Of a stretch of 64,000 nucleotides of DNA, positions 10,124 through 48,945 are shown one piece after another (positions within the stretch are counted from its first letter, which is position 1; each line of letters starts with the position of its first letter). The notes under the pieces are model-generated. The model was not told the origin of the DNA. It ran no database searches and saw only the letters and a program-made list of their open reading frames with translations. Source of the DNA: Candidatus Saccharimonadales bacterium (GTDB lineage: Bacteria; Patescibacteriota; Saccharimonadia; Saccharimonadales; UBA4665); assembly GCA_035247965.1 (NCBI GenBank), contig DATFHW010000025.1:510551-574550 (forward strand), written 5' to 3'. The position numbers and the translations under genes are program-made.

Positions 10124-11245
10124 TTAGCGATAGATGTAATGAGGGAATTCTGAGGCCGAAACCCAGCCGCTGTAACCCACACGACCAAAGCCGGCCAGAC
10201 CATTCATATCGCTATATTTGATCATGGTTCCATCTGGCGAAACCGCCTCAACATAGGCTACGTGGCCAAAGGTACCGCGGTCGCGCTGCGCAATGGCACC
10301 CTGCCGAGGCACGCTACTCACAGTCCAACCGCTGCGGGGCGCAAGATTGTCCCAGGTGTTGGCGTTACCCCAGTTGGTCGGCACTGAAATACGGTTTGCC
10401 ACATACCAGGTACAGAATCCCCAGTCGTAGCCGTTGGCACCGTAAATTGCCGACGTGCCAAACGAGTAGGCTGACGTGGTCGTGGTGGATGTAGCCGAAT
10501 AGGTTTGCGTTTTAACCTGACCATTTGGGATCAGGATTTTCTCGCCGGGGCGAAGGCCGTTAATTTCGGCATCGTTAAAGGCAATAATTTGGTCGGCACT
10601 CGCGTTATATTTGCTGGCCAGCGATTGCGGGGTGTCCCCGGCGGCAACGGTGTACACGATGCCGTTCAAAGGTGGAATTTGCAGCGTGCTGCCCACGGTA
10701 ACAGCGTCGCCGTTTAGGTTGTTCGACCAACGGATACTGTCAGAAGTTACATTAAACTGTGCCGCAATGCTCGCTACGGTGTCGCCATCTTTAACCAAGT
10801 AGCTCTTGATGTCGCTGCGTGATTTAAGGTCGGTTGAAACGATCTGCGGCTTCGTAACCAAGCTGTCCGATGCGGTCACGGCCATTTCGGCGCTTACCGT
10901 ATCGGCCTGGTTTTTCACTGCTGTGGCCTCTGGCAAATCAGCGGCACGCGAAACAGACACTGCAATATCTGCAGATGACAACTGGTCGAGCGGGTTAGAT
11001 GCGCTCTGGCTGCTCGTAACTGAATTTTGCGGGGTGTACGATGATGCGCCTCCGCCGTTCAAAACAAAAACAATGATTCCACCCAACAGCAAGAAGTTCC
11101 CAGCCAGCAAACCATATCGAATAGTTCGCTTTTGGGACGCAAAACGCGCTAGTTTGGCACGAGTCCGAGCAAATCGGCTCACGCGAGCCTTTGGTGCAGT
11201 TTGTACTGCTTCCATTGGCTGTGAATATGAATGACTAATATGCAA
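10124..11245 (-). CDS. membrane-anchored peptidoglycan hydrolase with two LysM domains and a C-terminal CHAP domain
   Basis: LysM repeats (YLVKDGDTVASIAAQFNV, YTVAAGDTPQSLASKYNA). The CHAP domain shows the catalytic Cys context GFCTWYVA and a later GHVAYVE. Confidence 0.8.
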   Translation of the reverse strand: MHISHSYSQPMEAVQTAPKARVSRFARTRAKLARFASQKRTIRYGLLAGNFLLLGGIIVFVLNGGGASSYTPQNSVTSSQSASNPLDQLSSADIAVSVSRAADLPEATAVKNQADTVSAEMAVTASDSLVTKPQIVSTDLKSRSDIKSYLVKDGDTVASIAAQFNVTSDSIRWSNNLNGDAVTVGSTLQIPPLNGIVYTVAAGDTPQSLASKYNASADQIIAFNDAEINGLRPGEKILIPNGQVKTQTYSATSTTTTSAYSFGTSAIYGANGYDWGFCTWYVANRISVPTNWGNANTWDNLAPRSGWTVSSVPRQGAIAQRDRGTFGHVAYVEAVSPDGTMIKYSDMNGLAGFGRVGYSGWVSASEFPHYIYR

Positions 11246-27454: not shown

Positions 27455-27504
27455 CCGTCGGCCGGTCCGATACAACTAAACAATAACTGAATGTTCGACG
27501 CGAA

Positions 27505-27572
27505 CGACGTGTCTCTGGCAGCCCCGCGGGCCCAGAAAGGACTCTCGGCACCCTGCCGGAGACACGCCGTCG
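27505..27572 (+). terminator. long GC-rich hairpin CGACGTGTCTC-TGGCAG...CTGCC-GGAGACACGCCGTCG at the end of block B
   Basis: Complementary arms of about 17 nt are visible by eye. No U-tract. Confidence 0.4.
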
Positions 27573-27772
27573 TGCGAATAGTAGATCGGTAGATCAGGTG
27601 GTCGTAGCATTGCGATGTTGGCGGCTCCTAGCGAGTTTTTTTGTAGCGGTCATTCCCGCTGCTCCCGCCTTCGATCCCATTGCTATTCGCACGACAAACC
27701 ACCATGTATGATTTTTATGCAACGATGCGACCCGTTTGGTCGTTCGCATCTTTACCCAAGAACCATAGAAAT

Positions 27773-27800
27773 AAAAAAGCCCGAGTTTGTTCGGGTTTTT
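27773..27800. terminator. rho-independent terminator downstream of mnmA
   Basis: AAAAAAGCCCGA-gtttgt-TCGGGTTTTT. Confidence 0.7.
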
Positions 27801-27821
27801 AGGTTTGAGCCGGAACAGTTG

Positions 27822-28982
27822 TTACTGAACGATGCCGCCGCCCACCACGCGGTCGCCCTGGTAAATCACGGCCGACTGTCCTGGTGTGATAGCGCGAACT
27901 TCCTCGGCTAAATCTAATCGCAATTGGTTGTTACCGGTGAATTCCAAACCCGAAACAGCCACCAGCGGCGCGCGATATCGGGTGCGCACCTGGTATTGCT
28001 CGCCTGGTTTTGGTGCATCGTTAATCCAATGCAAGCTGGTAAGCATCAAATGCTTCTTCCATAAACGATCATCCTGCAAGTCGGTAGTCACGTACACTTC
28101 GTTTTTGGCCATGTCTTTGCCCACCACGTAGTACGGCAAGCCGCCGCCCACGTTCAGGCCATGACGCTGGCCGATGGTATAAAACAGTGCGCCGTCATGC
28201 TCGCCAACCACCTGCCCGTGTTGTTCAACAATATTACCTGGTTCGGTGGTCACAAATTGCTGCAAGAATTCCTTAATTCCCACCTTGCCCACAAAGCAAA
28301 TACCCTGACTGTCCTTTTTCTCGGCCGTTGCCAGGCCTAGTTTTTTGGCCATCTCGCGAATCTGCGGCTTTTCAAAATCGCCAATTGGCATCAGGGTTTT
28401 GCTAAGTGCGTCTTCGGTCACTCGATATAAAAAGTAGCTTTGGTCTTTATTCGCGTCCAACCCCACTAGCAGCTGCGCGGTTGCGGGTAACGCGTCCGTG
28501 CGCGAGCCTGCCTGCTCTAGCGAGGGATATGCCAGCGGCATCATTGCCGACTCTGAGTCGGTAGGCGGAAGCGCGGATTGGCCGTGTTTGATGCGCGCAT
28601 AATGACCAGTGGCGATCATGTCGGCGCCGTCTTCCAAAGCCGCATTCAAAAACAGTTTAAACTTCACCTCTTGGTTGCACATAATGTCCGGATTTGGCGT
28701 AAGACCAGCTTTGTAGCCCTCCAACATGTAGTCCACGACTTTATGGCGATATTCTTTTTCAAAATCATACATTTTGAACGGAATGCCCAGTTGCACGGCA
28801 ACGCGTTTGGCATCCTGATAATCTTCTTTCCACGGGCAATCAAAGCCCGGCAGATCCTGGCTCCAATTTTTCATATACACGCCGGTTACATCGTAGCCCT
28901 GCTCTTTTAGTAACGCTGCCGTTACCGAGCTGTCTACGCCGCCGCTCATGCCAACAAAGACTTTTTGTGGTGAATGCGTCAT
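27822..28982 (-). CDS. mnmA: tRNA 2-thiouridine(34) synthase MnmA, carrying an in-frame insertion of about 30 aa
   Basis: SGGVDSSV PP-loop, the ATGHYAR and KDQSYFLY motifs, and ICFVG. There are 40 aa between HYAR and LLVG. Confidence 0.92.
   Translation of the reverse strand: MTHSPQKVFVGMSGGVDSSVTAALLKEQGYDVTGVYMKNWSQDLPGFDCPWKEDYQDAKRVAVQLGIPFKMYDFEKEYRHKVVDYMLEGYKAGLTPNPDIMCNQEVKFKLFLNAALEDGADMIATGHYARIKHGQSALPPTDSESAMMPLAYPSLEQAGSRTDALPATAQLLVGLDANKDQSYFLYRVTEDALSKTLMPIGDFEKPQIREMAKKLGLATAEKKDSQGICFVGKVGIKEFLQQFVTTEPGNIVEQHGQVVGEHDGALFYTIGQRHGLNVGGGLPYYVVGKDMAKNEVYVTTDLQDDRLWKKHLMLTSLHWINDAPKPGEQYQVRTRYRAPLVAVSGLEFTGNNQLRLDLAEEVRAITPGQSAVIYQGDRVVGGGIVQ
28498..28577. repeat. copy of the dispersed hairpin repeat module, located inside the mnmA coding sequence
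   Basis: GTGCGCGAGCC..GCGAGGGATATGCCAGCGGCATCATTGC includes a 28-nt exact match to 42641-42668. It also aligns to 35301-35365. Confidence 0.8.
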
Positions 28983-34166: not shown

Positions 34167-35207
34167 ATGGATCCATCAGCACTACAGTCCGACAACGATA
34201 ACGACGTGCACTCATTGGAGGGTACTGATACTGTTGTGGAGCAAGGCGCTGGGCAACCGCAACCCACGCCGAGCGGCTCCGCACCGTATGGTCCTGCCCC
34301 TGGCCCAGTCTCCGCTCCTGGCCAATCCCCGGAGCCGCCTAAGGCCAAACGTTCACTCAAAGGGTCAGTCAAAGACCTGTGGTCTCGGCTAAACATTTAT
34401 TTGCTGCTGTTTATTTTGGTAATGCTGGTTGCTGGCGCGGTCGTGATTGTACTCACCGTTAAGGGCCGCCAGGCCGACAAAGACAACGCGGCCACTACGA
34501 GCACGCAAAATCTCAGTGAAGACACGTTAAAACAGCTCGCCAACAGCGAGACAACCATTGGCAGCTCATCGCAGATCTTAAATATTGAGTCAAACGCCAT
34601 TTTTAACGGCGCTGTTTTGGTAAAGAAAGACCTGGAAGTTGCCGGGGCCATTAAAGTGAACGGTGCTTTGACACTGCCTGGCATTACCGTTTCGGGAACC
34701 AGCAATTTTAATCAGATTCAGGCGTCCACCCTGAATTTGTCTGGCGCAGCCACCGTTTCGGGTGCGCTAACTGCAAAAAATGGATTGAGTGTGAACGGAA
34801 ACGGAAACTTTACCGGCAGCGTTACCGCCACACAAATCTCGACCAGTTCGTTGCAGATTAACGGAAACCTAATTTTGACCCACCACGTGGTGGGCGGCGG
34901 TGCAATTCCCAGCTTATCCAAGGGCATTGCTTTGGGTGGCGGTGGAACCGCATCGGTTAGTGGGTCCGACACATCTGGATCGATTACCATTGCCACCGGT
35001 AGTGGACCGGGCGCCGGCTGTTTTGCAACCATCAATTTTGCCAGCGATTACAGCAGCACACCACACGTGGTGGTTACGCCAATTGGTGCCGCAGCGGGTA
35101 GCCTAGATTACTACGTCAACCGATCAACATCGTCATTCAGCGTTTGCACTGCCTCCGCACCAAGTGCCGGCCAAACCTTTGGCTTCGACTATATCATCTT
35201 CAACTAA
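34167..35207 (+). CDS. membrane-anchored protein with beta-helix-like repeats and an H-type-lectin-like C-terminus
   Basis: Pro-rich N-terminus, a TM, NG/SG-containing repeats (VNGALTLPGITVSGTSNF, LSGAATVSGALTAKNGLSVNGNGNFTGS), and a C-terminal FASDYSSTPHVVVTPIG. Confidence 0.55.
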   Translation: MDPSALQSDNDNDVHSLEGTDTVVEQGAGQPQPTPSGSAPYGPAPGPVSAPGQSPEPPKAKRSLKGSVKDLWSRLNIYLLLFILVMLVAGAVVIVLTVKGRQADKDNAATTSTQNLSEDTLKQLANSETTIGSSSQILNIESNAIFNGAVLVKKDLEVAGAIKVNGALTLPGITVSGTSNFNQIQASTLNLSGAATVSGALTAKNGLSVNGNGNFTGSVTATQISTSSLQINGNLILTHHVVGGGAIPSLSKGIALGGGGTASVSGSDTSGSITIATGSGPGAGCFATINFASDYSSTPHVVVTPIGAAAGSLDYYVNRSTSSFSVCTASAPSAGQTFGFDYIIFN

Positions 35208-35210
35208 AGC

Positions 35211-35400
35211 TGCGGGTCCCTCCTGCTCCCGTCCACTAACTTTTAGCTCGGCAATGATGCCGCTGGCATATCCCTCGCAAAAGTAAGTAGGCTCACGCAC
35301 AATTCGCGCAAGCTTGCCTGCGCTAGCGAGGGATTTGCCGAAGGCAACCTGCCCGAGTCTGTGTCGGCAAGCGAGAGCAGAAGGGCGGCAGGACTCGCAA
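35211..35400. repeat. ~190-bp structured dispersed repeat (MITE-like), copy A
   Basis: 35225-35300 matches the reverse complement of 42619-42695, with about 4 differences over about 76 nt. Internal hairpin ATGCC-GCT-GGCAT. Arms ATCCCTCGC and GCGAGGGAT. Confidence 0.8.
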
Positions 35401-35403
35401 GCG

Positions 35404-37869
<2,466 letters not shown>

Positions 37870-41355: not shown

Positions 41356-42504
41356 TTACACTACTATCAGATCGGCGAGCGTGCGAATTGCAGCCACGAC
41401 GTCTTCTTCGGTTGTGTGCCGGCCCATGGTCAGGCGCAGGCTGGCCTGAGCCTCTTGGTCACTGCGCCCTAGAGCGCGCAAAACGTGCGACGGTTCTTCG
41501 TTGCTGGCGCTGCAGGCAGACCCCGCGGCACACATCACATCGGCTTCGTCCAAGGCCATTAGTAGGCGCTCGTTGTCTTGGCCAGGAATTGTAATATGAA
41601 TGTTATTGGGCAAACGCTGGCTTTTTGACCCGTTCAGCTGGGCAGTTGGGATTTTTTGGGCAATTTCGTCGAGCGCCAGCTTTTGCAGGCGCTGCAATCG
41701 TACCGACTCTTGGTGGCGATCTTTTTGCACCAGATCAAGCGCCGTTGCAAGGCCAATAAATCCAGGCACGTTTTCGGTGCCGCTGCGCACACCACGCTCT
41801 TGGCCACCGCCCAAAATTTGTGGTTGCAATCTGACCTTAGCGCTCACAAATAATGCGCCGGTTTGTTTAGGACCATAGATTTTACCTCCGTTAATAGAAA
41901 TAAAATCCGCGCCTAACCGGCTAGCATGAATGTCTAAGTAATTTGCAGCTTGCGCGGCGTCGGTGTGCAGGTAAATTGGCAGTTCCACGCCCCTGGCGCG
42001 ACGATCGCGACGGATTTCTTCCAGCAGCTGGCCAATGTGGCGAATCGGCTGCACGGTGCCAATCTCGTTGTTAGCATACATAATGCTAACCAGCGCCGTT
42101 TGGTCGTTGATAGTCTGCTTTAGCGCGTCCACGTCAATCAGTCCCTGCGGCGTCACGGGTACTTCGCGGCAGTCATATTGATGCGTCGGAGCCAAAACCG
42201 ACTCGTGCTCAATGGCACTCACCACAATATTTGCCTGTGGGTATTGTTGCATAATGCCATTAATCGCGAGGTTGTTGGCCTCTGTTGCGCCGGCCGTAAA
42301 AATTACTTCGCTGGGCCGCGCGCCAAACCAGTGCGCCACTTTTGCACGAGCAGCTTCCAGATCTTTTTTGACTGCTTTGGCGCGCAAATACGTGGCCGAC
42401 GGATTATAAAAATGCTCCCAAAAATACGGCTCCATGGCCGCATGCACCGTTTTGTCCATCGGGGTTGCTGCTGCGTAATCCAGGTAAATCATATTCTTCA
42501 TCAT
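41356..42504 (-). CDS. cysteine desulfurase (class V aminotransferase, NifS/IscS-like)
   Basis: IYLDYAAATP N-terminus, the GGKIYGPKQTGAL PLP-lysine region, and CAAGSACSA with the active-site Cys. Confidence 0.85.
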   Translation of the reverse strand: MMKNMIYLDYAAATPMDKTVHAAMEPYFWEHFYNPSATYLRAKAVKKDLEAARAKVAHWFGARPSEVIFTAGATEANNLAINGIMQQYPQANIVVSAIEHESVLAPTHQYDCREVPVTPQGLIDVDALKQTINDQTALVSIMYANNEIGTVQPIRHIGQLLEEIRRDRRARGVELPIYLHTDAAQAANYLDIHASRLGADFISINGGKIYGPKQTGALFVSAKVRLQPQILGGGQERGVRSGTENVPGFIGLATALDLVQKDRHQESVRLQRLQKLALDEIAQKIPTAQLNGSKSQRLPNNIHITIPGQDNERLLMALDEADVMCAAGSACSASNEEPSHVLRALGRSDQEAQASLRLTMGRHTTEEDVVAAIRTLADLIVV

Positions 42505-42705
42505 ACCACGCTCCCGAGTTTTGCGGGTCCTGCCGCCTCTGTTCGGCTTTCGTCCTCACCACCCAGGCTCGTCGCTGCGTTGCAGAGCGAGCCTGGTCGG
42601 AGTCGGGCTACGCCGAATGTGCGCGAGCCTACTTACTTTTGCGAGGGATATGCCAGCGGCATCATTGCAGAGCTAAAAGTTAGTGGGGCGGGAGCACAAG
42701 CGGAG
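42505..42705. repeat. ~200-bp structured dispersed repeat (MITE-like), copy B, inverted relative to copy A
   Basis: See 35211..35400. The ends also match (GCGGGTCCTGCCGCC versus the reverse complement of GGCGGCAGGACTCGC). Confidence 0.8.
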
Positions 42706-42707
42706 GA

Positions 42708-43070
42708 CTAGGCGACGGCGTAGAGTTCGGTGTTCACACGCTTGTTGTACATGCGTACCGCTTGGTTGAAGCGCTTGGCTTCATCGTACCCAATGTACTG
42801 ATATGGGCGACCATCTTGCGCTTTCAAGATTCCGGTTGGACGAATATCGTATCGAGTAGTAATAGCCTGGCGAATGCCCTGCTGATCAACCCATTCTTCG
42901 TGCCACACCCAGGTGCGGTCATTCAGGCAGAAGAATTCACGACGACCACCAGCAGGAATCGGACCAAACAGCTCGCCGCCAATTTTGGCTTCGCGGCGAA
43001 TTGCTTCGCGGTATTCGCGAGTTCGAGCATCGTCTTGGTTGGTGGTACTAAGCAGCTTGAGCAAGTTCAT
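42708..43070 (-). CDS. hypothetical protein
   Basis: 120-aa ORF. No family recognised. Confidence 0.55.
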   Translation of the reverse strand: MNLLKLLSTTNQDDARTREYREAIRREAKIGGELFGPIPAGGRREFFCLNDRTWVWHEEWVDQQGIRQAITTRYDIRPTGILKAQDGRPYQYIGYDEAKRFNQAVRMYNKRVNTELYAVA

Positions 43071-48737: not shown

Positions 48738-48858
48738 GGGAGGAGGGACTCGACACTAATTGACTGCAAGCGTGCCACCGGCACACTTGCTATTACTCGT
48801 TCGAGTCCCTTTTAACGCAAGAAATTAAAAAGACCACCAAATGGTGATCTTTTTAATT

Positions 48859-48945
48859 TGGTGGGCGAGGAGGGACTCGAACCCTCAAGACTGTAAGGTC
48901 AGCGGATTTTAAGTCCACCGCGTATACCAATTCCGCCACTCGCCC
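48859..48945 (-). tRNA. tRNA-Leu (anticodon UAA), CCA encoded
   Basis: 87-nt cloverleaf: acceptor GGGCGAG/CTCGCCC, anticodon loop CTTAAAA, a long variable arm, and T-arm GAGGG-TTCGAGT-CCCTC. Confidence 0.9.

What the first reader, a model, noticed from the sequence alone, without database searches (positions are those of the whole stretch)
28498..28577. A dispersed hairpin repeat is inserted in-frame inside the essential tRNA-modification gene mnmA
About 80 nt of mnmA coding sequence are homologous to the intergenic repeat found at 35.3 kb and 42.6 kb. This includes a 28-nt exact match, GCGAGGGATATGCCAGCGGCATCATTGC, to 42641-42668. The insert keeps the reading frame. It accounts for extra residues (...GQSALPPTDSESAMMPLAYPSLEQAGSRTDALPATAQ...) between the conserved HYAR and LLxGxDxxKDQSYFL motifs. 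E. coli-type MnmA has only about 9 residues in that position. In-frame colonisation of protein-coding genes by palindromic repeats is known from Rickettsia palindromic elements. To my knowledge it is not an established feature of CPR genomes.
Basis: partly seen in the sequence, partly recalled or inferred. Interest (0 to 1): 0.66.

Follow-up and report, generated by a model that had tools for sequence, protein, structure and literature searches.

The report
Palindromic repeat inserted in-frame in mnmA
A 105-base piece of a dispersed hairpin-forming repeat sits in-frame inside the tRNA-thiolation gene mnmA of a Saccharibacteria (CPR) genome, adding a floppy 35-residue surface loop; the same repeats sit in-frame in DNA polymerase I, DnaX and an rRNA-methyltransferase-like gene in related genomes, as Rickettsia palindromic elements do in Rickettsia genes.

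Summary
mnmA (27822-28982, minus strand) carries a 105-nt, 35-aa insert (28473-28577). A close relative (L003) has a clean empty site, IKDGQ|LLTGLD. The insert is one 'A' hairpin module plus a 14-nt remnant of a second module type, 'B'. A modules also make up the intergenic elements at 35.3 kb (an inverted doublet) and 42.6 kb. Across 15 copies, compensatory changes preserve the hairpin. AlphaFold places the insert as a low-confidence coil at a beta-hairpin turn. In related root-metagenome Saccharimonadales, A and B modules lie in-frame in PolA, DnaX, a TlyA-like methyltransferase and a membrane protein. The mnmA turn is a hot spot: about a third of species carry inserts there, and strains whose mnmA differs by about 1.4% carry modules in opposite orientation or of different type. 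The embedded module is far better conserved (6.5% divergence) than synonymous sites in the flanking gene (47%), so the DNA or RNA sequence is being kept, not the peptide. The mobilising enzyme, any target duplication, and translation of the insert remain unshown. I file it as a new member of a known kind, in a phylum where I found no earlier report.

The parts
27822..28982 (-). mnmA (tRNA 2-thiouridine synthase), 386 aa, host gene of the insert
   Evidence: PDB MnmA chains match at E 2e-97. Pfam finds tRNA_Me_trans, tRNA_Me_trans_M and tRNA_Me_trans_C. Orthologs are Saccharimonadales MnmA.
28473..28577 (-). In-frame insert of 105 nt = residues S136-Q170 (SALPPTDSESAMMPLAYPSLEQAGSRTDALPATAQ). 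The boundary is ambiguous by one codon, because Q flanks both ends.
   Evidence: Delimited against the empty-site ortholog L003 (ATCAAAGACGGCCAA|CTATTGACT) and alignment A2. AlphaFold gives coil with pLDDT<50 for 136-165, between strands 128-133 and 169-173.
28498..28574 (-). A-type palindromic module, a single copy with 'type-1', stop-free stems. Sense-strand sequence: GCGCTTCCGCCTAC...GCAGGCTCGCGCAC.
   Evidence: nhmmer E 1e-21; alignment A3 and covariation; open in the host frame.
28520..28547 (.). 28-nt core identical in all three window sites. It holds the apical hairpin ATGCC-AGC-GGCAT and the conserved GCGAGGGA motif.
   Evidence: The 24-nt core TGATGCCGCTGGCATATCCCTCGC (sense-strand reading) is also invariant in L001, L002, L094, L099, L108 and L109.
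28480..28493 (-). Remnant of the right terminus of a B-type module (GCGTTACCCGCAAC, encoding ALPAT)
   Evidence: One mismatch to the B-right consensus GCGTCACCCGCAAC. The same terminus ends the B modules in L004, L114, L115, L088, L094 and L110.
35208..35403 (.). Composite intergenic element between the convergent bactofilin-like gene (34167-35207, +) and atpC (35404-35724, -). It is an inverted doublet of A modules, with a B-type arm on its atpC side and a degenerate inverted arm on the other side.
   Evidence: (D1, I1, I2). Folds with z -4.5. The site is empty in L001, L003 and L115, holds a singlet in L002, and holds B+A in L004.
35224..35299 (+). A module (type-2 stems, stops in 5 of 6 frames)
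   Evidence: nhmmer E 4e-20; frame analysis.
35305..35379 (-). A module (type-1 stems, UUCG-type apical loop GGTTGCCTTCGGCAAAT). It is the closest window relative of the L002 mnmA insert (88% identity).
35385..35398 (-). B-left-type terminal arm, GCGAGTCCTGCCGC
   Evidence: One mismatch to GCGGGTCCTGCCGC.
42505..42707 (.). Composite intergenic element between the class-V aminotransferase gene (Cys-desulfurase-like, 41356-42504, -) and a 120-aa ORF (42708-43070, -)
   Evidence: The orthologous IGR in L108 keeps only the A module.
42523..42536 (+). B-left terminal arm GCGGGTCCTGCCGC (exact). Its inverted partner GCGGAGGAC lies at 42700-42708.
42512..42619 (+). 108-nt segment (B-left arm plus an unrelated GC-rich hairpin 'X') that is present here but absent from the orthologous site in L108
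   Evidence: Pairwise alignment A4.
42620..42696 (-). A module (type-2 stems), orthologous to the L108 copy
   Evidence: nhmmer E 3e-19.

Best explanation
The window comes from a Saccharimonadales (CPR) genome that carries a lineage-restricted family of modular palindromic repeats. The family has two module types. A modules are about 77 nt, with inverted ends GTGCKCSMGCCTAC and an apical hairpin flanked by conserved CTCGG and CCCTCGC. B modules are about 85 nt, with conserved ends GCGGGTCCTGYC...CACCCRCAAC and a variable palindromic interior. In intergenic regions the modules occur as singlets, as inverted doublets, or as composites of about 190 nt bracketed by 14-nt inverted arms. One A module plus a B-end remnant (105 nt) lies in frame in mnmA, at the tight beta-hairpin turn after the HYAR strand. 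Inferred, not shown: it is transcribed and translated into a disordered, Pro/Ser/Ala-rich surface loop that MnmA tolerates. Only stop-free stem variants survive inside genes, and only at permissive loops or linkers, which is the same logic as for Rickettsia palindromic elements. What is conserved is the nucleotide sequence, not the peptide. That fits a selfish element kept uniform by copy-to-copy conversion or by the sequence requirements of its own propagation. Intergenic copies may also act as RNA hairpins at the 3' ends of genes. Once colonised, the mnmA turn is a hot spot where modules are replaced, inverted, doubled and partly deleted much faster than the gene diverges. Whether a transposase or ectopic recombination drives this is unresolved.
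For: Shown directly:
- Exact and extended homology among the three window sites.
- A precise empty site in L003 and an ancestral 4-residue turn in about two thirds of species.
- Presence/absence and content differences at orthologous intergenic sites: the atpC 3' IGR is empty in L001, L003 and L115, holds a singlet in L002 and composites in L004 and the window. The 42.6 kb IGR has 108 nt more than L108.
- Hairpin covariation: 11 of 22 pairs keep pairing after changes on both sides.
- In-frame copies in PolA, DnaX, an S4+FtsJ methyltransferase and a membrane protein. The same frame is re-used for each orientation, giving recurring peptides such as VLPPTDSDSG.LPSANPSLEQ.GSR and AGPAAHGDPSS....
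- All in-CDS A copies have type-1 stems and are open in 3-4 of 6 frames, including the host frame. Most intergenic copies have stop-rich type-2 stems (0-3 of 6 frames open).
- The insert is coil with pLDDT<50 between two confident strands.
- Turnover: L004 and L114 mnmA differ by 1.4% outside the insert, but their inserts are in opposite orientation. The L114 insert is 96.7% identical to L004's intergenic copy and 81% to L004's mnmA copy. L116 and L117 differ by 1.3% and carry unrelated modules.
- B-family modules sit in the mnmA turn in lineages at 67-92% aa identity, in both orientations and as a doublet.
- Nucleotide-level conservation: the module differs at 5/77 sites, against 64/135 four-fold sites in the flanks (P 4e-15), and 4 of the 5 differences are non-synonymous.
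Against: - No transposase or recombinase was linked to the repeats. A tblastn with two Y1 transposase sequences recalled from memory found nothing in 1.7 Mb, but this is a weak and biased test.
- No target-site duplication could be identified at any junction.
- Copy density is low, 3 sites in 64 kb.
- The mnmA copy's own hairpin is not more stable than shuffled sequence, so any structural role of this particular copy is doubtful.
- Translation of the insert is inferred only from frame and stop-codon preservation. That inference is partly an ascertainment effect, because disrupted genes would not have been retrieved as orthologs.
- The loci used are strongly biased towards mnmA neighbourhoods, so genome-wide CDS versus IGR proportions are unknown.
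- Some diversity at the mnmA site could come from in-frame partial deletions of one ancestral A+B composite rather than from repeated insertion.
Confidence: 0.8

Rival explanations
1. The embedded module is a functional cis element kept by selection, not a passenger. It could be an RNA hairpin or protein-binding site inside the mnmA message that controls translation, stability or pausing. It could also be a DNA site for a nucleoid or recombination protein. On this reading the peptide is a by-product.
For: The module is far more conserved than neutral sites of the same gene, and its few changes are mostly non-synonymous. A 24-nt core (TGATGCCGCTGGCATATCCCTCGC) is invariant in copies from several genomes whose mnmA genes differ by about 16-19%. 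The second loop variant is a C(UUCG)G tetraloop on the sense strand. The stems show compensatory change.
Against: The same pattern is expected from gene conversion among dispersed copies, or from recent re-insertion. Close relatives do without the element at this site (L003) or carry unrelated modules there (L115, L116). The mnmA copy's fold is no better than shuffled sequence. There is no Rfam match.
Confidence: 0.12
2. The segment is removed before the mature enzyme forms, either as a small intron-like RNA element or by protein splicing, so MnmA is not really lengthened.
For: The insert sits at one precise position in a conserved gene and is structured at the nucleic-acid level in the family as a whole.
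Against: All in-gene copies keep the frame and lack stops in the host frame, while most intergenic copies are stop-rich. RNA excision would impose no such constraint. Insert lengths and junction residues vary (28-74 aa) with no conserved Cys/Ser/Thr...Asn splice junction. At 77-105 nt the segment is far below the size of group I or II introns (general knowledge), and there is no Rfam hit.
Confidence: 0.04
3. The extra loop is an old lineage-specific MnmA feature, and the intergenic copies are fragments copied out of mnmA, or the similarity is spurious.
For: The insert is shared with at least two other lineages (L001, L002), so it is not very recent.
Against: The similarity is far beyond chance. 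Empty sites occur in the nearest relative and in most of the order. The same modules occur in at least four other genes and in several intergenic sites. The intergenic copies are full palindromes and inverted doublets, not gene fragments.
Confidence: 0.02
4. The pattern is an assembly artefact: repeats caused chimeric joins in metagenome assemblies.
For: Dispersed repeats are a known cause of misassembly, and most comparison loci are metagenome contigs.
Against: Homologous in-frame inserts at the same codon were recovered from independent samples and assemblers (JGI, ENA, Logan and NCBI). The modules (about 80 nt) are shorter than a sequencing read, and flanking synteny is intact on both sides.
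Confidence: 0.02

Closest known systems
Rickettsia palindromic elements (RPE; Ogata et al. 2000 Science 290:347, as summarised in the MITE review PMC10969869)
   Same: Both are short palindromic dispersed repeats found in intergenic DNA and in frame inside unrelated housekeeping genes. Both add a peptide at a position compatible with the fold, use a recurring reading frame that gives a recognisable peptide, have no transposase of their own, and occur in a small host-dependent genome.
   Different: The modules here are shorter (about 77-86 nt, against about 100-150 bp). They are modular, with two types that combine. Copy density in the window is low. One site (the mnmA turn) shows rapid replacement and inversion between near-identical strains, whereas RPE insertions are, to my knowledge, mostly old and fixed.
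Bacterial MITEs with intragenic in-frame copies (ERIC, BOX, Coxiella QMITE1 in PMC5896051, Anabaena MITEs; listed in PMC10969869)
   Same: Small size, terminal inverted repeats (14-nt arms bracket the L004 composite; 11 of 14 pairs for the A-module ends), no coding capacity, presence/absence polymorphism at orthologous sites, and occasional translational fusions.
   Different: No target-site duplication and no parent IS with matching ends were found. The interior is itself built of smaller palindromic modules that also occur alone.
REP / BIME / REPIN elements mobilised by RAYT (Y1) transposases (GTAG- or CGTC-tagged REPs, PMC3733652)
   Same: Imperfect palindromes in gene-end intergenic regions. 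They often occur as inverted doublets, as at 35.3 kb and inside L118 mnmA. Hairpins are maintained by compensatory change. A possible role is as a 3' RNA hairpin.
   Different: REPs are 20-40 nt and extragenic by definition. These modules are about twice as long and occur inside genes. A GTAGG is present in the A stem, but not as a 5' tag. No RAYT gene was seen, though the test was weak.

Membership tests
RPE-like in-frame palindromic repeats (functional class) | Dispersed multi-copy palindromic element | tested here: met
   4 A modules at 3 window sites, and 15 A copies plus 10 B copies across related loci. Hairpin covariation is present.
RPE-like in-frame palindromic repeats (functional class) | Inserted in frame in unrelated protein-coding genes without disrupting them | tested here: met
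   Found in MnmA (the window and 10 other loci), PolA, DnaX, an S4+FtsJ methyltransferase and a membrane protein. All are open in the host frame.
RPE-like in-frame palindromic repeats (functional class) | Insertion at a surface-exposed position compatible with the fold | tested here: met
   The AlphaFold model shows coil with pLDDT<50 at a beta-hairpin turn between confident strands. The PolA and DnaX copies lie in inter-domain linkers. Contact with tRNA was not assessed.
RPE-like in-frame palindromic repeats (functional class) | Insert is transcribed and translated | not testable with these tools
   Only frame and stop-codon preservation are available as indirect evidence.
Rickettsia RPE sequence families (RPE-1 to RPE-10) | Sequence homology to an RPE consensus | not tested
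Homology is not expected across phyla, so this is not filed as a member.
MITE | Terminal inverted repeats | tested here: met
   GCGGGTCCTGCCGC / AGCGGCAGGACCCG bracket the L004 composite. The window has arms at 42523-42536 / 42700-42708 and at 35385-35398. The A-module ends are inverted repeats.
MITE | Target-site duplication flanking the element | tested here: inconclusive
   Filled and empty junctions were compared at mnmA, the atpC IGR and the 42.6 kb IGR. No consistent direct repeat was recognisable, and the insertions may be too old or reworked.
MITE | Presence/absence polymorphism at orthologous sites | tested here: met
   Seen at mnmA, the atpC IGR and the 42.6 kb IGR.
MITE | A parent autonomous IS with matching ends in the same or related genomes | not testable with these tools
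   Only fragments of 21 kb or less of related genomes could be read. Nothing was found in them.
REP/REPIN-RAYT | 20-40 nt extragenic palindrome with a 5' GTAG or CGTC tag | tested here: not met
   The modules are 77-86 nt and occur inside genes. GTAGG lies inside the A stem rather than as a terminal tag.
REP/REPIN-RAYT | A RAYT (Y1 transposase) gene in the genome | tested here: inconclusive
   tblastn with IS608 and IS200 TnpA sequences recalled from memory gave no hit in 1.7 Mb of held DNA. The whole genome was not available.
Diversity-generating retroelement (TR/VR pair) | Mismatches between the repeat copies confined to adenines of the template | tested here: not met
   The 17 and 23 mismatches are spread over A, T, G and C. 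There are more than two copies, in several genes.
Intein or self-splicing intron | Conserved splice-junction residues or catalytic RNA core, and adequate size | tested here: not met
   Junctions and lengths vary. There is no Rfam hit. The frame and stop constraint argues for translation.

The most novel reading that the evidence does not exclude
The beta-turn after HYAR in MnmA may be an order-wide, actively targeted recombination site, not merely a permissive loop. B-family modules, which have conserved ends and variable palindromic interiors much like recombination sites, are swapped, flipped and doubled there between strains whose mnmA differs by about 1.4%. In other species the same turn holds heptanucleotide tandem arrays (3 of the 5 perfect arrays found in 1.5 Mb). 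This would imply a hairpin- or site-specific single-strand DNA recombinase or transposase working inside an expressed housekeeping gene. It might also allow slippage-driven on/off switching of tRNA 2-thiolation.
Probability: 0.12. Interest if true: 0.8.

Novelty: new member of a known kind. Interest (0 to 1): 0.55.

Why it matters
CPR/Saccharibacteria genomes are small and usually described as streamlined and poor in repeats. Here a family of selfish palindromic repeats has entered the coding sequence of core information-processing genes (MnmA, PolA, DnaX and an rRNA-methyltransferase-like gene). This parallels the one classic case, Rickettsia, another reduced host-dependent lineage, and suggests the phenomenon goes with that lifestyle rather than with one genus.

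There are three practical consequences.
- The inserts create strain-level length variation in marker genes.
- They can confound alignments and the clustering of orthologs.
- They provide natural 'permissive-site' maps for engineering these enzymes.

The nucleotide-level conservation of an embedded module (6.5% against 47% at neutral sites) and its turnover between near-identical strains give a tractable system for asking how such repeats spread and are kept uniform.

Tried and rejected
- Rfam at gathering thresholds over the whole window, and at E<=10 over the 42.6 kb element, found only two tRNAs and noise.
- DGR template/variable repeat: rejected, because mismatches hit all four bases.
- mnmA as the source of the intergenic copies: rejected by the empty sites and by copies in other genes.
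- Intein or intron: rejected (see the membership test).
- The degenerate-core scan of metagenome contigs returned 29 loci, of which only 6 were true family members. The other 23 were chance matches in unrelated coding DNA.
- The GTDB genome scan found no representative closer than 76% MnmA identity, so the host species and its full repeat census could not be obtained.
- Inserts of distant species (L007, L021, L041, L061 and others) gave no blastn match elsewhere in their own 20-kb loci. Whether they are dispersed repeats remains open.
- The search for a Y1 transposase used IS608 and IS200 TnpA sequences recalled from memory. It found nothing, and it is a weak test.
- Viral contigs: neither A-core variant nor the B-termini pattern was found.
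- Target-site duplications: none was recognisable.
- A resemblance of B modules to integron attC sites (conserved ends, variable palindromic interior, ...CAAC / GTTG... ends) was considered but not tested. The ends do not fit the GTTRRRY consensus exactly.
Full report
**1. Observation**

The 28-mer GCGAGGGATATGCCAGCGGCATCATTGC occurs exactly three times in the window: 28520-28547 (+), 42641-42668 (+) and 35251-35278 (-). None is expected in 100 shuffles. A 44-nt degenerate extension hits the same three places. Alignment and blastn extend the similarity to 73-103 nt, at E 1e-11 to 1e-13. No further copy of the family is detectable in the 64 kb, either by blastn, by nhmmer profiles or by terminal-motif searches.

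**2. The host gene and the exact insert**

ORF 27822-28982 (-) is MnmA. It matches PDB MnmA chains at E 2e-97 in two blocks, leaving query residues 135-166 opposite only two residues of the solved protein. All three Pfam MnmA domains are present. The homolog search places it in Saccharimonadales.

Most orthologs are 347-351 aa. The nearest one without extra residues (P0004, locus L003, 95% identical outside the insert) reads HYARIKDGQ|LLTGLD, from ...ATCAAAGACGGCCAA|CTATTGACT.... Against this empty site, the window has exactly 105 extra bases (28473-28577), encoding S136-Q170 in frame.

An AlphaFold model built from the ortholog alignment has mean pLDDT 73. It gives coil with pLDDT<50 for residues 136-165, between confident strands 128-133 and 169-173. 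The insert therefore expands the turn of a beta-hairpin.

**3. Anatomy of the repeat**

The repeat finder showed that the mnmA segment also matches 35306-35378 on the opposite strand of the 35.3 kb element. That element is therefore an inverted doublet of two modules of about 77 nt. With copies from relatives, two module types can be defined.
- A modules run GTGCTCCCGCCTAC - stem - apical hairpin (TGATGCCGCTGGCATAT or GGTTGCCTTCGGCAAAT) - CCCTCGC - stem - GTAGGCTCGCGCAC.
- B modules run GCGGGTCCTGYC ... variable palindromic interior ... GCGTCACCCRCAAC.

Full intergenic elements are about 190-220 nt. They are composites of these modules bracketed by the B-left arm and its inverted copy, for example L004 3551-3768 and window 42505-42707. 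The window's mnmA insert is one A module (28498-28574) plus a 14-nt remnant of a B right end (28480-28493, GCGTTACCCGCAAC).

In RNAalifold on 15 A copies, 11 of 22 pairs keep pairing after changes on both sides. Examples are CG:7/UA:7, CG:7/UA:6 and AU:9/UA:6. The palindrome is therefore maintained, although the double changes trace to only two or three subfamilies. Intergenic elements fold better than shuffled sequence, at z -4.5 and -2.2. The mnmA copy does not, at z +0.9 and +0.1. Rfam has no match.

**4. Evidence that it is an inserted, dispersed element**

(a) Empty sites. L003 lacks the mnmA insert, the atpC-IGR element and any other copy in 21 kb. L001 and L115 have empty atpC IGRs. L002 has a single A module there. 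L004 has B+A. The window has A+A.

(b) The orthologous 42.6 kb IGR of L108 is about 85% identical in its flanks. It keeps only the A module and lacks 108 nt (42512-42619) and the right arm.

(c) A scan of metagenome contigs with a degenerate core found six true copies, all in root-associated Saccharimonadales contigs.

(d) Some of these and other copies lie inside genes, in frame:
- L088 is DNA polymerase I, with a B module and an A module in the region between the 5'-3' exonuclease domains and the DNA_pol_A domain.
- L094 is DnaX, with a B module in the region after domain III.
- L109 is an S4+FtsJ (TlyA-like) methyltransferase, with an A module in the opposite orientation inside the FtsJ domain.
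- L110 is a low-complexity membrane protein with A+B+B.

The same frame is used for each orientation, so the peptides recur. For example, VLPPTDSDSGRLPSANPSLEQEGSR in PolA resembles GVLPPTDADSGGLPSANPSLAQVGSR in L002 MnmA.

(e) All in-gene A copies carry 'type-1' stems, open in 3-4 of 6 frames. Most intergenic copies carry 'type-2' stems (TAACTTTTAG...AAAAGTAAG), with stops in most frames and 0-3 of 6 open. This is what a filter for translatability would produce, and it argues against removal of the insert at the RNA level.

**5. The mnmA turn is a hot spot**

Among 65 GTDB Saccharimonadales species whose loop could be read, 44 have the ancestral 4-residue turn and 21 have 3-42 extra residues at this one position. 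No other position of the protein shows comparable variation.

In the window's own clade the content changes much faster than the gene:
- The window, L001 and L002 carry A. The L002 copy has the other apical loop, and is closer to window 35305-35379 (88%) than to the window's mnmA copy (82%).
- L115 carries B forward.
- L004 carries a 15-nt A end plus B forward.
- L114 has mnmA only 1.4% different from L004 and identical junctions, yet it carries B in reverse orientation. That insert is 96.7% identical to L004's intergenic B copy but only 81% identical to L004's mnmA copy.
- L116 and L117 differ by 1.3% and carry, respectively, a third palindrome type (z -5.6) and a B-like module.

Further out, L118 has an inverted B doublet (74 aa), L119 has B reverse, and L120 and L025 (67% aa identity) have B ends with other interiors. 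Some of this variety could come from in-frame partial deletions of an ancestral A+B composite. The L004/L114 and L116/L117 pairs, however, require replacement.

**6. What is conserved**

Between the window and L001, four-fold degenerate sites in flanking mnmA differ at 64/135 (47%) and first and second codon positions at 3.5%. The embedded A module differs at only 5/77 sites (6.5%; binomial P 4e-15), and four of those five changes alter the amino acid. The peptide is therefore not under detectable constraint, while the nucleotide sequence is either constrained or repeatedly homogenised against other copies. The 24-nt core TGATGCCGCTGGCATATCCCTCGC is invariant in copies from several genomes.

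**7. Mechanism**

The mechanism I commit to is a selfish, non-autonomous palindromic repeat family. Its members reach genes as well as intergenic DNA, and they survive in genes only as stop-free variants at loops and linkers, where they are translated as disordered segments. Copies are kept similar by ectopic conversion or re-insertion, and colonised sites attract further rearrangement.
- Shown: homology, empty sites, polymorphism, in-frame occurrence in several genes, palindromic covariation, the predicted loop position, turnover, and nucleotide-level conservation.
- Inferred: translation, tolerance by the enzyme, and the mode of movement.
- Not found: a transposase (a weak test), target duplications, and viral carriers.

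**8. Comparison with known systems**

The closest analogue is the Rickettsia palindromic element, which inserts in frame into many unrelated genes (Ogata et al. 2000, as summarised in PMC10969869). Intragenic ERIC, BOX, Coxiella QMITE1 and Anabaena MITEs are further precedents (PMC10969869, PMC5896051). REP/REPIN elements share the inverted-doublet habit and hairpin maintenance, but they are shorter and extragenic (PMC3733652). DGR, intein and intron readings fail their defining tests.

Full-text searches found no paper linking Saccharibacteria, TM7 or CPR with MITEs, REPs or in-frame palindromic repeats. This is absence in the searchable library only.

**9. Verdict**

I file it as a new member of a known kind: RPE-like in-frame palindromic repeats, here in a CPR lineage. 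Its unusual aspect is one site in MnmA that undergoes rapid module turnover across an order. Interest is 0.55. It is not a new principle, but it is a clear, extensible and previously unreported case with a testable population-level dynamic.

Noticed in passing
L026 4027-4058; L060 3878-3907; L084 ~10420-10450; also L053, L047, L050 (mnmA loop of distant Saccharimonadales): In several distant species the same MnmA turn holds heptanucleotide tandem arrays in frame: (AGAGCCA)x4, (CGAGACT)x4 and (CCCAACA)x4. Perfect heptamer arrays are rare, 5 in 1.53 Mb, yet 3 of them lie in this loop. A one-unit slip would frameshift mnmA.
   Followed up: partly
window 27455-27821: The 367-nt non-coding stretch downstream of mnmA holds a terminator-like hairpin right after the stop codon (AAAAACCCGAAC...CTCGGGCTTTTTT). 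It also has several other inverted repeats, including 13-nt perfect arms at 27569-27581 / 27683-27695 and 18-nt arms at 27504-27521 / 27553-27570. Several relatives (L001, L002, L004, L114, L115) have a GGDEF-domain gene at this position, which the window lacks.
   Followed up: partly
window 48799-48882, next to tRNA-Leu at 48859-48945: A 41-nt inverted repeat (80% complementary, 2-nt spacer) has one arm overlapping the 3' part of tRNA-Leu. The other arm begins GTTCGAGTCCC, like a tRNA T-arm. It looks like a partial tRNA copy facing the gene, possibly the scar of an integration site.
   Followed up: no
L001 10.8-17.2 kb, L003 11.9-18.8 kb, L004 12.8-19.9 kb, L115 12.8-19.8 kb; window ~20.9-25.6 kb (repeat families D2, D5, D6): Downstream of mnmA, the relatives carry long same-strand arrays of 20-30 very small genes (45-100 aa) with no Pfam match. 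The window shows internal direct-repeat families in the corresponding region, which suggests a paralogous small-protein array.
   Followed up: no
L116 10382-10501; L119 4179-4292: Further unrelated palindromic elements occupy the same two sites in other lineages. One is a strong 78-nt palindrome (GACGCATCGAGG...CGATGCGTC, z -5.6) in the L116 mnmA turn. The other is a long, near-perfect hairpin in the L119 atpC 3' intergenic region.
   Followed up: partly
window 41356-42504: A class-V aminotransferase gene (cysteine-desulfurase-like; this family includes the sulfur donors that work with MnmA in other bacteria) lies directly beside the 42.6 kb repeat element, 12.4 kb from mnmA. This is probably a coincidence.
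   Followed up: no
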